A model generated the notes under the pieces. That model saw only the letters and a list, made by a program, of their open reading frames with translations. It was not told the origin of the DNA and did no database searches. Position numbers and translations under genes: made by a program. Positions 5,840-63,400 of a stretch of 64,000 nucleotides of DNA are shown here, piece after piece (position 1 is the stretch's first letter; every line of letters starts with the position of its first letter). This stretch comes from Eledone cirrhosa. Taxonomy: Eukaryota. Where the stretch lies: positions 66,960,001 through 67,024,000 of the forward strand of contig OZ024741.1 in NCBI GenBank assembly GCA_964016885.1, written 5' to 3'.

Positions 5840-6525
5840 CCGAATTAGTGTGGTAGAGACGAGTACACATGTTGTTGAGGTGTTTAACTTTGTCAATACT
5901 CTGATATGCCCAGTTCCTGGTTGGGTTGTTATTTCACTGAGGAACTGGAATCATATGAATTTAAACAAACGAATTTCAGCGTCAAAGGACATCCTCTCCT
6001 CCCATTGGTCAGTTGTGAGAACATTCCTCAGTCAAAAGTCTATAGAAATTCGTTCTGAGGCGAGGCAATCTGTAGTGGTTGTTCTTGTTATTGTTAAGTA
6101 CATCTGACCTCTATCCTTATGTTGGTAGTGGTGTTGGTGCTGGAGTCAGCTTAATTCCAGCTGCTACTGATTTTAGAAAGATCTGTGTGTGTTGGCATCT
6201 ATCTTGCCACCAGTTCTCGTGGTAGTGGTGGTGGTGGGGGTGGGTGGGTTGCCAAGCATTTCTGTCAACAACTTACTGGCGAAACAGATCTCTTTGGATT
6301 TGTACGTGTGTTATATAGTTATAGAGGTATTTATTTACGCTTTAATTTATATTTTTAATTATCGTGTCTATAGTCTGCCTTTCATAGGTTATAGATTCCA
6401 TACACTGGTGGTTTTTTCCCTGTTCTATTGATAGCGCACTGTATCTCTCTCTAGTGTGTTACCTTTTCAACATATTGTATATATATATGTATGTATGTAT
6501 GGATGTATGTATGTATATATATATA

Positions 6526-6568
<43 letters not shown>

Positions 6569-6880
6569 AAAAATACGATGAAATAATACACAAAATTATA
6601 CCTATTTTCTTTTTCAGATCCCGGCTGCAATATCCCCGAAATCGTTTACAGTGATATAAAGTGCATAATCACCGTGAGGTTGATAGGACCTATCAAGTGA
6701 CCCCTAAAAAAAGGGATTCTTCTAGACGCCTTCGTAGCAAGTGAGAAATTCTCGAGAGGCCGAGTGAGAAATCAACACGTGATACAGTGATCAAAAGAGG
6801 ACTATTTCCTGATTCGTTCGTAGAAGTTAGAAATTATCGATAGGTGGAGGGAGAGGTTAACACGTGATGCAGTGGTCAAA

Positions 6881-7621
6881 TCGTTTTTTTGGGCTATGCG
6901 AATGATTGTTTCAGTGTGTTTGGCCTTTAACGTTTGTTATAGCTCTGGTTCATCTGAATCATTGAGCACTTGCCGCACATCTCGGAGGTTGCTTTTCGTT
7001 ATTTCGTGGGCCGAAATGCGAATCTCGATAATTTATGTTTGTATTACTCTCCAGACTCTAGCTATTGACCAGTTAATTTTCTTGATTTAATAGTTGATTC
7101 TATTGACTGATGAATAGCTTATGTTAATTTTAACCCTTCTGTTGAGAACTCTATTCGATTTGTGATGTTTTTGCATTCTTGCAAAAATATACACAACTGA
7201 ATTCATTCGCCTGATATAGGGGTTGCCTCCCTTGCCGATCCCCACGTGAGGTCAGCAATAGTCAGTCCTTGTATTAACATTGAACTAAAACCTGTTGAGA
7301 AAGTGGCTTCCTTGTTCAATCATCTTACCAGAAGCCTGACATTATTTATGTAAGCGGACGGTACTTGATTTAGGAGCCGTAGAAACCCATATACTGGATT
7401 TTACCAACCTTCCAGGGGTCCGGGTAAATTTTCAATACCCGAATTACTTGATCGTTTTTTTGGCTATGCGAATGATTGTTTAACCATCGTCTCAGTGTGT
7501 TTGGCCTTTAACGTTTGTTATAGCTCTGGTTCATCTGAATTATTGAGCACTTGCCGCACATCTCGGAGGTTGTTTATCGTTATTTCGTGGGCCGAAATGC
7601 GAATCTCGATAATTTATGTTT
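6881..7621. repeat. Unclassified repeat with ~160-bp direct repeats (6881-7041 and 7453-7621); diverged inverted paralog at ~23975-24395
   Basis: Near-identical blocks tcgtttttttggctatgcgaatgattg...ctcgataatttatgttt; right end abuts (TA)n. Confidence 0.75.
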
Positions 7622-35857: not shown

Positions 35858-37012
35858 ATACTCGGGGAGGGTCATATTGTTGGAATAATATTGCCCCAGA
35901 AATAATTGTTTCTATTTTAGGCACAAGGCCAGCAATTACCCAGTATATTACTGGTACTTTATTTTATCGACCCTGTAAGGATGAAAGGCAAAGTTAACCT
36001 CGGCGGGATTTGAAGTCAGATCATAAAGGGACGTAACTCTATGCTTCAAAGCATGGTGGCCGACTCTCTACCGATACTGCCAATCCATTGCCCCAGAAAT
36101 AATAACAGAACACACTCACTGATTGGTTGGTTTTCACTTCTGTATCTTTTATATCTCCATAATTAATTCATTTGGCCATCAATGTTTATCACTAACTGAC
36201 CAACGGTCAAAAATACAGATATAAACACATATATATAGTCTAACAAAGTTCTTTCGCTGCACATCTGCAACATCATCAGTGGTACTATTCTCATGTTTCG
36301 CCTGCTGTATTGTATGTATTGTAATTTCCACGCCATTTTTATTTTATCTATTTATTTATTTATTTTATTTTTGTCTTCGTCTCTGCGCATGCGTTTGCGT
36401 GTGTGTATAGTGTTTGATTTGTGTGTTCGCGTTTGGGGGACTGTGTTTTGGTTATTGAATTCTATCTTAGTTTATTAGTGTGTGCTTATATGTGTTTGTT
36501 GTTATTGTGCTTGTGTATATATTTATTTATTTATATTTGTCTTAAGTCAGTATTGTTTGTTTGGGTGTCGTTGTTATTCCATTCATTTTTTCTGTTTAGT
36601 TTTGGCTTTCTAAGCTCTATTTCACTTGCTTCTCTGATTTGCCTACCTGTTGAGTCATTTCTATGTTTAGATATTATTTTAATTTCTATGTTGTCTATGT
36701 TACCGTCATGTTGTTGTCTGGCGTGTTCGAATAGTACTAAACCGTTTTTTTTGTCCTTTTAATTCCCCCCAGTGTTGGTCTATTATCTTTCCTATGCTTC
36801 GAGCTGTCTCACCTATGTTTGTCGTTGTCATGTTTCTGCAAGTACCCTCTCTACATCTTATGCTATAGACTACATTTCTAGTTTTACAGTTTATCTGGGA
36901 GTTAACTTTACATATAACACATTTCTTATTAGTACAGTGGGTTTTCTTAAAAGGGTATGTTTTGCCGATCAGAGATTTTATGGTAGTTCCTGGCTTTTCT
37001 ACCACTTAAAGA
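35851..37012 (-). mobile_element. 5'-truncated Neptune-like PLE (GIY-YIG region plus pLTR with HHR at 36243-36283), interrupted by a SINE
   Basis: VEKPGTTIKSLI..YPF...C..KKC.IC...NCKTRNVVYSIRC...IGETARSI; HHR CTGATGA t gttgca-gatg-tgcagc GAAA gaac TT. Confidence 0.85.
35901..36086 (-). mobile_element. Full-length family A SINE with target-site duplication
   Basis: attgccccagaaataat at 35890-35906 and 36087-36103; an empty-site paralog lies near 22930. Confidence 0.88.
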
Positions 37013-42371: not shown

Positions 42372-42515
42372 TGGTATATGACCGGTACTTTATTTTATTC
42401 CCTCTGGAAGGATAAAAGGCAAAGTTGACTTAGGCGGAATTTGAACTCAGAACGTAAAAGACTCTAATTAAATGGTGAATAGCATTTTGTCAGACGCTCT
42501 GACGATTCTGTCAAT
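42372..42515 (-). mobile_element. Diverged family A SINE
   Basis: ggtactttatttta..aaggataaaaggcaaagttgac..ggcggaatttgaactcag. Confidence 0.7.
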
Positions 42516-42724
42516 CAACTACCTTTGTGTATTTTGGGCACATAGTTGGATACATTCATAGACAGACGCAGGAGCAAATATATATAGTATACAGACAAAG
42601 GAATAGGTGATTTGAACAGCTGACGAGTTAGGCATATTGTTTGATAGATATACATGAAATCATTAGGAATGCTCTGATGCCTTAATACGAATAAAACAGG
42701 TCTAGTCTTGTAGAAGTCATTTCT

Positions 42725-42810
<86 letters not shown>

Positions 42811-42815
<5 letters not shown>

Positions 42816-44275
42816 GAAGTTAATATGCCCGTGGGTACTAAGTACCCCCGGAAATACATAGGTTGTCTATGATTTAAGGTTGTTCTATGGTATCAATTTG
42901 ACATACCAGAACTATAATATTAATATAAGCAGAAGAAGCAAAATTCAACCAATTTTTTTAAATAAATTAAAAAATATAATTTAAATATTTACCTATTCAT
43001 TTGGCCCTTACCGATCGGTTTCGCCTTGTAAAACACTAGAGATCCAATGGATTTCTAATCGAAAATCAAGGCTCATCAGAGAAGCATTTTCCTTTCCTAG
43101 GGCTAAAGACCCAGGAACGATAAAATATATTGTTATCTGCCAGCTAGCACATATCCAAAAGGCCGAAAAATGACCTGTACGTGAACTACCCGAGGTGAAA
43201 GCGGGAAAAACATAGACGTGTTGTCTATCTCGTTACTAAAAATAGCAGCTAAATAGAAACAACAGATTTGTTCTCAACATAACGGAGGGTAATAGAAGAA
43301 GTTAATATGCCCGTGGGTACTAAGTACCCCCGGAAATACATAGGTTGTCTATGATTTAAGGTTGTTCTATGGTATCAATTTGACATACCAGAACTATAAT
43401 ATTAATATAAGCAGAACAAGCAAAATTCAACCAATTTTTTTAAATGAATTAAAAAATATAATTTAAATATTTACCTATTCATTTGGCCCTTACCGATCGG
43501 TTTCGCCTTGTAAAACACTAGAGATCCAATGGATTTCTAATGGAAAATCAAATTGGATCTGTGCTAGCTGGCAGATAACAATATATTTTATCGTTCCTGG
43601 GTCTTTAACCCTAGGAAAGGAAAATGCTTCTCTGATGAGCCTTGATTTTCCATTAGAAATCCATTGGATCTCTAGTGTTTTACAAGGCGAAACCGATCGG
43701 TAAGGGCCGAATGAATAGGTAAATATTTAAAGTATATTTTTTAATTTATTTTAAAAAATTGGTTGAATTTTGCTTGTTCTGCTTATATTAATATTATAGT
43801 TCTGGTATGTCAAATTGATACCATAGAACAAACTTAAATCATAGACAACCTTTGTATTTCCGGGGGTACTTAGTACCCACGGGCATATTAACTTCTTCTA
43901 TTACTCTCCGTTATGTTGAGAACAAATCTGTTGTTTCTATTTAGCTGCTATTTTTAGTAACGAGATAGACAACACGTCTATGTTTTTCCCGCTTTCACCT
44001 CGGGTAGTTCACGTACAGGTCATTTTTCGGCCTTTTGGATCTGTGCTAGCTGGCAGATAACAATATATTTTATCGTTCCTGGGTCTTTAGCCCTAGGAAA
44101 GGAAAATGCTTCTCTGATGAGCCTTGATTTTCCATTAGAAATCCATTGGATCTCTAGTGTTTTACAAGGCGAAACCGATCGGTAAGGGCCAAATGAATAG
44201 GTAAATATTTAAATTATATTTTTTAATTTATTTAAAAAAATTGGTTGAATTTTGCTTGTTCTGCTTATATTAATA
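42811..44275. mobile_element. Retrozyme-like element: 482-bp HHR-containing unit, ~1.5 tandem copies on each strand, joined as a fold-back within (TA)n
   Basis: Period 482 (42812/43294; 43632/44114). HHR ttct CTGATGA gccttg...caaggc GAA ACCG-at-CGGT A aggg at 43005-43083(-), 43628-43706(+) and 44110-44188(+); junction ~43551; no ORF. Confidence 0.85.
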
Positions 44276-44314
44276 TATATATATATATATATGAATATAT
44301 ATATACATATATAT

Positions 44315-44413
<99 letters not shown>

Positions 44414-44422
44414 TATATATAC

Positions 44423-44590
<168 letters not shown>

Positions 44591-44649
44591 GACATTTTTT
44601 TCCAATTCCACCCCGCCGGTCCCTTCAATCTATCTAATTTCTCGTTCTT

Positions 44650-44685
44650 TCTTCTGATGAAGGACTAGCGTCCGAAACGTTAAGA
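44650..44685 (+). ncRNA. 36-nt minimal hammerhead of classic PLE type
   Basis: tctt CTGATGA a ggac-tagc-gtcc GAAACGTT aaga; palindromic AACGTT replaces stem III. Confidence 0.85.
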
Positions 44686-44778
44686 CCCCCTTCCTGCTAT
44701 TTCAAGCGTTACCCTAATATATTCCTTCCATATACTGTAACGATTGAGTTGTTATTTCTGTAATCCTTTTAAACACAC

Positions 44779-44932
<154 letters not shown>

Positions 44933-45247
44933 CAGGAATAACGATTTCATACATGAATGAATCAGGTCTAGTCCTGTAGAAGTCATTTCTATATTATCTA
45001 TACCAAAACACAGCCACTGTACGTGATATTAACTAAAATATGTGCACTTTGAACAACGGGCTACAGTCTCACTATTGCAATCTCTTAGATTCATTGAGTG
45101 GGTGTGTCGTTGGCTGCAGATCGATAAATTAATATAAACAATTTTCGTAAACCTTGTATAATAAAGATATATATATTAGCAAGATTCGGGGCCCGACTGC
45201 TGAGCTCTTGCTGTTTAAACAGCTAGTTCCAGCCGGAGACATATAGG

Positions 45248-60407: not shown

Positions 60408-63400
60408 TCCCACATCAAGACGTAACATATCCGCGTATAGTTCATACTATCCGTTAGGGTATAACGTGGCGCTGTAATACAGGAAAGTTTTGTTCAATTT
60501 ATGTTTACAAGCCAAAATTGCCTCAGATTTTTTGTTTAATATGTGGTCTTTGGCGTAGAGTATTTCCAGGGACTCAGCGGCGCAGAGGTCACATGGTCTT
60601 TTATTTCCGTTATACGATTTAGCCCTAGCTAGGATATCCCAGTGTAACTTATATTGGGTGTGGTTGTCTTTTAGACGTTTTCTGGCAATGAACAAAAAAA
60701 AACGAAGATAATAAGTCATATGTGGAACGTGGAGAACAATAGCACGCAAAGACAAAACCACGTAAATGGTATAGCAGAAGTTGTAGCCTAAATTTCTAAC
60801 TAGGAGACCGAATGAATCTCCGCTACAGAGTTAAGAACAAAGTAAATAAATACAATACAGAAGTAATAGAAATAAATAAATACATACACGCAAACAAATA
60901 CGTACATACACAAGCATACGCAAAACACTTACCATAGGTATACAAAACCACGCACATATAAATATGTGTGTGTGTATGCGTGTATACAAATAAATAAATA
61001 ATTATATAAACGTATATAAATAAATAAATACGTATATAACAAGCACACCCACATACCTACATGTAAATACACGAATGTTCGGAGACGTAAGTCAACCAAA
61101 ACATGAAGTACACATATACACACACCCTACATACGTACGAACCAGCATACTCACACAGACGCAAAACTTCCGTATACACAAAGCCAAACCATATGTACCA
61201 GAATATATAAAATTATACGCCAAAACATAAACAATTAAATATACGTACGAGAAGGTAAACGTACCTTCACAAAACATACGGGTAATATATACTTACCTAT
61301 GCAAATAAGTAATGGTATAAACAAAACATATACTTAGCTCCCACATCAAGACGTAAAATATCCACGTATAGATCGTACTATCCGTTAGGGTATAACGTGG
61401 CGCTGTAATACAGGAAGGTTTTGTTCAATTTATGTTTACAAGCCGAAATTGCCTCAGATTTTTTGTTTAAGATGTGGTCTGTGGCGTAGAGTATTTCCAG
61501 GGCCTCAGCGGCGCAGAGGTCACATGGTCTTTTATTTCTGTTATACGATTTAGCCCTAGCTAGGATCTCCCAGTGTAACTTATATTGGGTGTGGTTGTCT
61601 TTTAGACTCCAGATATAAGCTGAAAGTGTCGTCATATTCCTTCTTAGAGGGTAACGAAAAGAATGGGTATGCATGTAAAGACGCTGCTTGAATCTATTGG
61701 CGGTTAACCCTATGTAGGCCCTACGGGACGTGGGTGTTACAACCTTACATTTGTAGACGATGTTACTAGAGAGGCATTTCTCGGATAGGGGGCAATCAAA
61801 CTGATTCCTACAAATACAGTTAGTACTAACTACAGGGTTGCACGTGTTTTTACGGCTAGGTAGTTTAGCTAAATTTGAAGCTGTGAAGTTATGTGCAAGG
61901 TTAGGAGTCGTAGAGTAAGACATTTTAATAGTATTTCTATTAAAAATTTTACTATATGTATGTGTAGGGGGAAAATGCTTCGTAATAAGGGAAAGAAAGA
62001 TCTTAGCTAATGGTGTGGCCACCTCCATATTATATGCGACGGGATCTATTTCTTCTAGGTCTATTTTCGTACTCAATATATGCTACCTTATCGACAAATC
62101 CACTTCGAGCAAGAGCTTCATTGTAATAAGTGGAATGGTCGTTGAAAATACGCTCGTTGGTGGAAAGACGGGAAAGCCTCAACGAAACATTTCTTACCAG
62201 GTTCTTGGTTATGCTGTATAGAGAGGTTGAAGACTCTAAAGAAGGCTGTGAGTTCTTTTCTGAACCTGTCGCAAGCACGAGGTCCGCACTTAGTCATGGT
62301 CAAAAGACCATCGTCACGGTACAAACCACCGCCCGCGTTGGGGAATTCATCCTTGATAGAGAAAAGAAGGAAAAGGCCGATAAGATCAGTAACCTCCGCA
62401 GAATCACTGGCGCCCATACTCACGTCGAATGGGGTACTATTGGATTTTTTAATCCAAATAGAGTCGTCGAAATTAATCACCGACTTTCGGCCATTGAGGA
62501 TGACATCAACTTCGAAATCCTTAACCACTGTGAGTGTTATAGCGAAATTGATAGCTCAAAGGAGAAGTGGTGAAGTGATGGAGGAGTAGTAATTGTTGAT
62601 GTCGAATTGGATAAAACAGCAATGTTCCTTGTTACATATGCCGTTGAACCAATCAATCACCGCGAAAGAATTGTTCCACAGTGCAAGAGGGTCCAAACTT
62701 CTAATTTCAGGTATAATTCTATCAAGAATCGTTTTACTAAGTCTGCCTAAATCGGACTTCGTAGGGTTAATAAGCCGAATAGAGGGGTTGTTCGGAAAAT
62801 TGGATTTGTGATCCTTCAGGGTAAAGTGGGGAGAAATAGGCCCTGGAAATACTCTACGCCACAGACCACATCTTAAACAAAAAATCTGAGGCAATTTCGG
62901 CTTGTAAACATAAATTGCACAAAACTTTCCTGTATTACAGCCCCACGTTATACCCTAACGGATAGTACGATCTATACGTGGATATTTTACGTCTTGATGT
63001 GGGAGCTAAGTATATGTTTTGTTTATACCATTACTTATTTGCATAGGTAAGTATATATTACCCGTATGTTTTGTGAAGGTACGTTTACCTTCTCGTACGT
63101 ATATTTGATTGTTTATGTTTTGGCGTATAATTTTATATATTCTGGTACATATGGTTTGGCTTTGTGTATACGGAAGTTTTGCGTCTGTGTGAGTATGCTG
63201 GTTCGTACGTATGTAGGGTGTGTGTATATGTGTACTTCATGTTTTGGTTGACTTACGTCTCCGAACATTCGTGTATTTACATGTAGGTATGTGGGTGTGC
63301 TTGTTATATACGTATTTATTTATTTATATACGTTTATATAATTATTTATTTATTTGTATACACGCATACACACACACACATATTTATATGTGCGTGGTTT

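What the first reader, a model, noticed from the sequence alone, without database searches (positions are those of the whole stretch)
42811..44275. 482-nt tandem HHR unit: candidate retrozyme producing a circular RNA, integrated as a fold-back
Seen: a non-coding 482-bp unit present as ~1.5 copies on each strand. Two plus-strand HHRs have predicted cleavage sites after 43702 and 44184, exactly 482 nt apart. The two arms end at different points of the unit (...cttcttcta at 42811 versus ...cttatattaa at ~44273). Established: tandem HHR repeats self-process into monomers that circularise. Inference: greater-than-unit-length, permuted copies fit reverse transcription around a circular template. The near-identical copies suggest a recent event.
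Basis: partly seen in the sequence, partly recalled or inferred. Interest (0 to 1): 0.85.

Follow-up and report, generated by a model that had tools for sequence, protein, structure and literature searches.

The report
Two-armed Penelope-type hammerhead retrozyme
A 482-base non-coding repeat with a predicted self-cutting RNA motif sits here as two back-to-back arms whose outer ends fall at the same two points in nearly every copy examined, likely because a Penelope-type jumping-gene enzyme copied one RNA unit, probably a circle, from both sides of a DNA break.

Summary
The structure is real: a head-to-head fold-back (42810-43551 minus, 43553-44276 plus) of a 482-nt non-coding unit inside (TA)n. 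It has three intact hammerhead cores, not two. It is one copy of a dispersed family (up to 2,330 candidate places).

In 54 loci, 83 of 88 outer ends fall at unit position ~92 or ~199. 30 of 34 fold-backs pair one of each, and none pairs like with like. This is the Penelope footprint (inverted 5'-truncated arm, tail on one end), also seen in an ORF-bearing Penelope-like element here. No PLE ORF is joined to any of 57 loci.

Repeated copying of one unit is supported: arrays reach 7.4 units, 115 of 115 junctions counted have no indel, and locus-private variants are shared by all units and both arms. A circle is the likeliest template (~0.65) but is not shown. No RNA run was listed and cleavage is untested.

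It is a new member of the metazoan non-LTR retrozymes.

The parts
42810..43551 (-). Left arm, 1.54 units (u422 to u199); ends at site 2 and so carries the 107-nt tail
43553..44276 (+). Right arm, 1.50 units (u333 to u92); ends at site 1, no tail
43552..43552 (.). Head-to-head junction of the two 5'-truncated arms, one base belonging to neither arm
43703..44184 (+). Complete cut-to-cut 482-nt unit (predicted monomer); 35.5% GC, longest stop-free stretch 74 aa, circular fold z = -4.2
43009..43490 (-). Complete unit on the minus arm; its upstream ribozyme is truncated
43622..43712 (+). Type I hammerhead motif 1 (core at 43632, predicted cut after 43702); 6-bp stem II extended by a long hairpin, palindromic stem III, weak stem I
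44104..44194 (+). Type I hammerhead motif 2 (core at 44114, predicted cut after 44184)
42999..43089 (-).
43491..43551 (-). 3' half of a hammerhead; CUGAUGA strand lost by 5' truncation
42810..42916 (-). Tail (u93-199): the stretch between end site 1 and end site 2, present at one end only
42728..42809 (.). (TA)n target tract, left
44277..44586 (.). (TA)n target tract, right

Best explanation
This is one two-armed insertion, in a (TA)n tract, of a dispersed ORF-less 482-nt hammerhead-repeat family with two fixed end sites, likely inserted by a Penelope-type reverse transcriptase-endonuclease copying a single predicted self-cleaved unit, probably a circle, from both sides of the break. Steps: (1) Inferred: a locus with two ribozymes is transcribed and cut after GUA into a 482-nt monomer that is ligated. 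(2) Inferred from the footprint: a PLE protein acting in trans cuts both strands of (TA)n, and each DNA end primes reverse transcription at an internal site, one at u~92 and the other at u~199. (3) Inferred: each cDNA runs a variable distance (0.09-7.4 units) round the same unit. (4) Shown as structure: the two 5'-truncated arms are joined head to head, mostly over 1-5 shared bases. Confidence by step: retrozyme mobilised by PLE machinery ~0.9; one unit copied repeatedly ~0.8; covalent circle ~0.65.
For: Ends: 83 of 88 outer ends in 54 loci lie at site 1 (u84-96) or site 2 (u194-202). 30 of 34 fold-backs pair site 1 with site 2, none pairs like with like; 2 of 2 further fold-backs agree. Both flanks are TA-rich in 48 of 57 loci. 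PLE footprint: an inverted 5'-truncated copy and a tail at one end are the described PLE layout (PMC8557442, PMC3846280). Two internal start sites that bound the tail were shown in vitro (PMC11167929). The ORF-bearing PLE P2 of this genome shows the same two-site fold-back (L188). A 76%-identical sister family (526 nt) keeps both sites at aligned positions. One template: 16 of 128 one-locus variants are fixed in every copy of their locus, and four private ones span both arms (L006, L024, L038, L042). Variants seen in 3 or more loci are fixed in 224 locus-states and partial in 26. 115 of 115 unit junctions counted have no indel. In L113 neither arm is contained in the other. Ribozyme: core intact in 89 of 95 copies; the stem II C-G to U-A double change is in 22 of 95. 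Stem III changes C-G to U-A in the sister family and keeps a perfect palindrome. Arm 5' ends gather at -3..+15 of the cut site: 12 of 79 against 4.75 expected, p~0.002, window chosen after seeing the data.
Against: No RNA, cleavage or circle was observed. Rfam does not score the motif. In the window's copies stem I has two G-U pairs, and the active fold is 5.6-7.7 kcal/mol above the minimum-energy fold. In one study only 1 of 9 predicted retrozyme dimers cleaved in vitro (preprint 10.64898/2026.07.22.740005). For the anole PLE, cleavage was not needed for insertion and uncut RNA was the main substrate (PMC11167929). No autonomous PLE sharing the unit's sequence was found; P1 and P2 show no significant similarity. 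11 sites vary in more than one but not all copies of a locus, e.g. L002 u56 in two adjacent units. One junction outside the counted margin has an extra base (L035). Private variants could come from unsampled parents, since 57 loci of up to 2,330 candidates were read. Among arms longer than one unit the 5'-end excess is weak (5 of 40, p 0.02-0.07).
Confidence: 0.62

Rival explanations
1. Same PLE-driven two-site insertion, but the template is an uncut linear multimer transcribed from a longer array; no circle is needed.
For: Exact junctions fit equally well. The active fold is disfavoured in the window's copies. Uncut RNA was the main substrate of the anole PLE (PMC11167929). L002 has a variant in two adjacent units only.
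Against: A mutation arising in one unit cannot become fixed in all units and both arms without a monomer bottleneck, yet 16 private variants and most states of 32 shared ones (224 of 250) are fixed per locus. Arrays could only shorten over generations. The ribozyme core and stems are conserved with compensatory changes.
Confidence: 0.18
2. The ribozyme cuts, but the reverse transcriptase builds multimers by jumping end to end on linear monomers.
For: Excess of 5' ends at the cut site suggests some templates had a free end there. One junction has an extra base (L035).
Against: 115 of 115 counted junctions have no lost or added base; end-to-end jumps usually leave such marks (established knowledge of R2 and group II intron RTs, recalled). 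Jumps between different molecules would mix subfamily markers within arrays, which is rare.
Confidence: 0.1
3. One arm is made from RNA and the second by copy-back (self-priming) on the first cDNA, with the end set by the endonuclease, as proposed for PLE palindromic junctions.
For: It explains variants shared by both arms. 7 of 34 fold-backs have both 5' ends within about 10 nt of each other (read). Proposed in PMC3846280 (passages).
Against: In L113 neither arm is contained in the other. Most junctions, including the window's (u422 against u333), are far from palindromic. Either site can carry the long arm.
Confidence: 0.06
4. These are solo PLE pLTRs or dead fragments, expanded in tandem at the DNA level after insertion.
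For: Fixed ends and (TA)n flanks. One locus shows local duplication of a piece with its TA tract (L014). The 2026 preprint proposes local amplification from a PLE terminus.
Against: Every array has exactly one-unit period and a family end site. Young arrays are 99.5-100% identical in both arms. No PLE protein match is contiguous with any of 57 elements; the nearest is 78 nt away.
Confidence: 0.04

Closest known systems
Metazoan non-LTR retrozymes (Cervera and de la Pena 2020, PMC7229834, passages and Discussion read; Li, Clavereau and Pollet 2026, 10.64898/2026.07.22.740005, parts 1-3 of 5 read)
   Same: Non-coding tandem repeat under 50% GC, one type I hammerhead per unit, no LTR, dispersed, coexisting with PLEs; predicted well-paired monomer.
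   Different: 482 nt is above the 150-450 bp of the 2020 paper but inside the 51-972 bp of the preprint. Stem II carries a long hairpin extension. The two-armed layout with two fixed ends is not described in the text read ('inverted' occurs 0 times in PMC7229834). Circles were shown there and not here.
EN+ Penelope-like elements: inverted 5'-truncated copy, tail, (TA)n targeting (PMC8557442 passages and section 11; PMC3846280 passages; PMC11167929 parts 1-2 of 4)
   Same: Head-to-head inversion, tail on one end only, two internal end sites downstream of a hammerhead, microsatellite targets, 5' truncation.
   Different: No ORF; the whole element is the repeat unit; the tail is 107 nt against 30-40 nt; arms run over several units.
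Circular-template model for PLE tandems (Cervera and de la Pena 2014, PMC4209133, passages)
   Same: Proposes ribozyme cleavage, ligation and more-than-unit reverse transcription; palindromic helix III allowing dimeric ribozymes.
   Different: A proposal there; here per-locus variant patterns give indirect genomic support, still without RNA data.
LINE-1 twin priming (recalled, no call)
   Same: Both DNA ends prime on RNA, giving an inversion joined by microhomology.
   Different: In L1 the second primer site is variable and the arms copy different parts of one RNA. Here both sites are fixed and the arms copy the same sequence.

Membership tests
Metazoan non-LTR retrozyme | Head-to-tail tandem repeat with a type I hammerhead in each unit | tested here: met
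   Three intact cores in the window; core intact in 89 of 95 copies; arrays to 7.4 units. Motif and covariation only; no Rfam match.
Metazoan non-LTR retrozyme | Non-coding, low GC, no LTR | tested here: met
   35.5% GC; longest stop-free stretch 74 aa. PBS and PPT were not searched for.
Metazoan non-LTR retrozyme | Dispersed, mobile copies | tested here: met
   2,330 candidate places, 40 scored; near-identical copies on many contigs.
Metazoan non-LTR retrozyme | Ribozyme self-cleaves | not testable with these tools
   Indirect only: covariation, 5'-end excess at the cut site; active fold not the minimum-energy fold.
Metazoan non-LTR retrozyme | Expressed as monomeric linear and circular RNA | not testable with these tools
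   No RNA holder listed.
PLE-mobilised insertion | Inverted 5'-truncated copy and a tail at one end only | tested here: met
   30 of 34 fold-backs pair site 1 with site 2, none like with like.
PLE-mobilised insertion | Insertion into AT-rich or (TA)n targets | tested here: met
   Both flanks TA-rich in 48 of 57 loci, one flank in the other 9.
PLE-mobilised insertion | Homology to the pLTR of an autonomous partner | tested here: inconclusive
   No significant similarity to the two PLE families examined. One sister-family fragment sits at the junction of a P2 fold-back. Other PLE families were not surveyed.
Autonomous Penelope-like element | RT plus GIY-YIG ORF between pLTRs | tested here: not met
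   No P1 or P2 protein match contiguous with any of 57 elements.
Viroid-like self-replicating circular RNA | Ribozymes in both polarities and RNA-to-RNA replication | tested here: not met
   All cores lie in one polarity of the unit; the minus-strand core belongs to the inverted arm. Replication was not testable.

The most novel reading that the evidence does not exclude
The family is a genomic record of two PLE reverse transcriptases (a dimer) starting 107 nt apart on one ribozyme-made RNA circle, one from each side of a (TA)n break, and displacing each other's cDNA as they go round. The strict site-1 plus site-2 pairing would then explain both the one-sided PLE tail and retrozyme tandem arrays by a single mechanism. 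A Hydra-like PLE (P2) would be the driver.
Probability: 0.4. Interest if true: 0.72.

Novelty: new member of a known kind. Interest (0 to 1): 0.5.

Why it matters
How animal retrozymes get into genomes is proposed (circle plus PLE enzymes) but not shown in the papers read. This family carries the PLE footprint directly and gives exact predictions: two start sites, a 482-nt circle, and candidate driver ORFs in the same genome. An in vitro test with the published PLE assay format is therefore straightforward. The strict one-of-each pairing of end sites also bears on the unexplained PLE tail. The interest is tempered because every component is known and the circle is inferred.

Tried and rejected
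Rfam, whole window at the gathering score: 0 matches. At E<=10 on 42500-45100: 17 weak rows, mostly TA-repeat matches, no hammerhead.

Expression: no RNA holder listed. The four listed runs (kind not on record; one study, at most two samples) gave contigs only, which cannot show RNA ends or copy number.

Randomly permuted 3' ends: rejected.

Two different templates for the two arms of the window element: first suggested by u339, rejected because the left-arm base is a single derived change.

RNA-editing scars (lead from e1-8803865): variants fixed per locus were A>G 5 and T>C 1 of 21 in this family, and 3 and 3 of 25 in the sister family. No support.

Partner search: PLE P1 (from the window's endonuclease fragment) and PLE P2 share no significant sequence with the unit. 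A motif from a loose contig end had 0 matches in the assembly. Direct parent-daughter links: only 1 of 18 two-locus variants is fixed in one locus and partial in another, which is inconclusive.

5' ends cluster near the start of whichever query was used (sister family), so 29 ascertained arms were set aside from the 5'-end test. The ribozyme regex failed on the sister family (0 copies), so that comparison rests on single units. Pfam gave nothing for the window fragment or the P1 ORF, and only a sub-threshold GIY-YIG match for P2.

Literature searches listed no paper on cephalopod retrozymes or two-armed retrozyme insertions; the library lacks most subscription papers. Supplements were not seen: those of PMC7229834 (Figs S4-S9) and the preprint may bear on the novelty claim.

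Full report
Observation. The region 42810-44276 is an inverted pair of arms between (TA)n tracts at 42728-42812 and 44273-44586. Numbering the 482-nt unit from the first base after the predicted cut (43703 = u1), the minus arm 43551-42810 reads u422-482, 1-482, 1-199. The plus arm 43553-44276 reads u333-482, 1-482, 1-92. The arms are joined at their 5' ends over one extra base. Copies differ at 11 single-copy substitutions. Three intact CUGAUGA...GAAA...GUA cores are present, two on plus and one on minus, plus a half motif. The longest stop-free stretch in the unit is 74 aa. The host is a 3.0-Gb AT- and microsatellite-rich animal genome. A cephalopod is likely; that is my inference and the wording of earlier scan notes, not a call result.

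The ribozyme. Rfam does not score it, possibly because stem II (6 bp) is extended by a long hairpin. The evidence is motif and covariation. The core is intact in 89 of 95 copies. Stem II shows a C-G to U-A double change in 22 of 95, and stem III is unchanged in 92 of 95. A sister family of 526 nt and about 76% identity changes a stem III pair from C-G to U-A and keeps a perfect palindrome, 10 nt here and 12 nt there. Short palindromic helix III is typical of animal type I motifs that can act as dimers (PMC4209133, passages). Against: stem I is weak in the window's subfamily, and the active fold costs 5.6-7.7 kcal/mol over the minimum-energy fold, against 3.0 in the youngest subfamily. Cleavage is untested. 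As circles the three units tested fold better than shuffles (z -3.0 to -4.7, 40 shuffles each).

The family. The unit has 2,330 candidate places, of which 40 were scored. Sub-queries gave 2,155 (u81-196), 579 (middle) and 1,284 (ribozyme) candidates. I analysed 54 loci (40, 14 new) and checked 3 more. Two further new loci were listed but not fetched. 83 of 88 outer ends lie at u84-96 or u194-202; L007 was assigned by eye because a deletion breaks its alignment. Of 34 fold-backs, 30 pair one site with the other, 4 have one irregular arm, and none pairs like with like. Of 20 one-strand loci, 19 end at one of the sites. L193 and L195 are two more site-1 plus site-2 fold-backs. Both flanks are TA-rich in 48 of 57 loci. 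Fold-back junctions share 1-5 bases in 22 of 34 cases, 11-19 bases in 3, and have 0-2 extra bases in 9. All 20 sister-family loci analysed (of 40 scored) have an outer end at the aligned positions u126 or u221-236. So the ends are fixed, not permuted.

What the footprint means. An inverted 5'-truncated copy and a tail at one end only are the described structure of EN+ PLE insertions, and Naiad and Hydra clades target (TA)n (PMC8557442; PMC3846280). For an anole Poseidon, reverse transcription starts at two internal sites that bound the tail, both target strands are cut and extended, and the protein is predicted to be a dimer (PMC11167929). In this genome the ORF-bearing element P2 has a CxCX5C linker and an RWY motif resembling the Hydra clade description (no tree built). 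It forms the same fold-back with a different end on each arm (L188). No P1 or P2 protein match is contiguous with any of the 57 elements, and neither family's ends resemble the unit significantly. The only link to a driver is one P2 fold-back whose junction holds about 185 nt of the sister family (L050 5342-5526), which I read as a possible template switch. It is a single case.

One unit copied repeatedly. Arms span 0.09-7.39 units. All 115 unit-to-unit junctions counted are free of indels; one more, excluded by a 14-nt margin, has an extra base. Variants seen in three or more multi-copy loci are fixed across all copies in 224 locus-states and partial in 26, the largest groups at two CpG sites and a homopolymer run. 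Of 128 one-locus variants, 16 are fixed in all copies. With stricter polarisation, 21 variants are fixed, 146 are single-copy and 11 are in several but not all copies. Four private variants span both arms. A mutation arises in one unit, so fixation across an array and its inverted arm needs a one-unit bottleneck followed by repeated copying. A circle gives this with exact junctions. Caveats: parents are mostly unsampled, and gene conversion is not excluded. In L113 neither arm is contained in the other, which argues that both arms were templated independently rather than by copy-back.

Sign of cleavage. After setting aside 29 arms favoured by the query, 12 of 79 arm 5' ends (both families) lie within -3..+15 of the cut site. 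A length-jitter null expects 4.75 (p 0.002; 0.006 and 0.0002 with other jitters), and the flanking windows show no excess. The window was chosen after seeing the data, and for arms longer than one unit the excess is 5 of 40 (p 0.02-0.07). It suggests some templates were open at the ribozyme, but a structural stall fits too. No A-to-G excess was found. No RNA run was listed.

Mechanism and odds. Shown: anatomy, fixed paired ends, (TA)n targets, no ORF, per-locus homogeneity. Inferred: cleavage, ligation, PLE action in trans, priming from both DNA ends, rounds on a circle. I give 0.62 to the whole chain. The rivals are an uncut linear multimer (0.18), jumping on linear monomers (0.10), copy-back (0.06) and DNA-level expansion of solo pLTRs (0.04).

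Comparison and novelty. It meets every testable criterion of metazoan non-LTR retrozymes and fails the ORF criterion of autonomous PLEs. PLE mobilisation and circular templates are proposed in PMC7229834 (Discussion) and PMC4209133. The 2026 preprint adds pLTR homology and co-occurrence but says the mechanism is unresolved. Five searches listed no description of two-armed retrozyme insertions, and an octopus repeat annotation does not use the word ribozyme (PMC13282606, passages). Earlier notes of this scan describe the same layout for 310-, 311- and 422-nt units, and PLE-type ends for 467- and 478-nt units, in this genome. A sequence look-up for this unit returned nothing. Those notes are unchecked and I do not count them as support. 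Verdict: new member of a known kind, with an informative insertion footprint; interest 0.5.

Noticed in passing
L050 4271-5050 (G000:C1 ~115578270-115579050) and loci L137-L161: Sister retrozyme family with a 526-nt unit, about 76% identical, 1,396 candidate places, arrays of several units, same two end sites.
   Followed up: yes
L050 5087-5976: Fold-back of PLE P2 with about 185 nt of the sister retrozyme at its junction; possible template switch pointing to P2 as a driver. Only such case among the loci scanned.
   Followed up: partly
L187 334-1560 (-), L188; window 13736 (+): PLE P2: RT and C-terminal endonuclease with Hydra-like motifs, a microsatellite-rich 3' region of about 3 kb, a minimal hammerhead-like motif and two end sites; a related end lies in the window.
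   Followed up: partly
window 36279-37005 (-): Endonuclease fragment and hammerhead-like motif of an abundant PLE (P1; 21,190 candidate places; stop-free frames of 1,153-1,287 aa in partial tandems and fold-backs ending in (TA)n).
   Followed up: partly
window 44590-44770 (+): Another compact hammerhead-like motif (core at 44654) in a short segment that ends at an (AC)n tract; probably the end of a third PLE family.
   Followed up: no
window 42664-42727 and 44950-44995: Short ends resembling P2's; the first has very high contig depth. The TA tract hit by this element seems to be the end of an older repeat.
   Followed up: no
L073 about 6200-7490 (-): Array of a 310-nt unit with five hammerhead-like cores beside a P1 copy; likely the 310-nt family of earlier scan notes.
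   Followed up: no
window about 43985-43997 and 44060-44070 (+): A TTTCCCGC motif (E2F-like, recalled) and a TATA-like stretch are kept in both families upstream of the ribozyme; possible internal promoter, untested.
   Followed up: no
L014 2158-2709: Two extra copies of the u320-u92 piece, each followed by its own TA tract: local DNA duplication or repeated priming.
   Followed up: no
L033 2317-2947: Fold-back with a 14-nt site-1 arm, and a site-2 start that skips to u123 after 10 nt.
   Followed up: partly
window 60982-61039 and 63304-63361; 26904/27046; 18932/22561: Further inverted or duplicated segments, probably other retroelement fold-backs.
   Followed up: no
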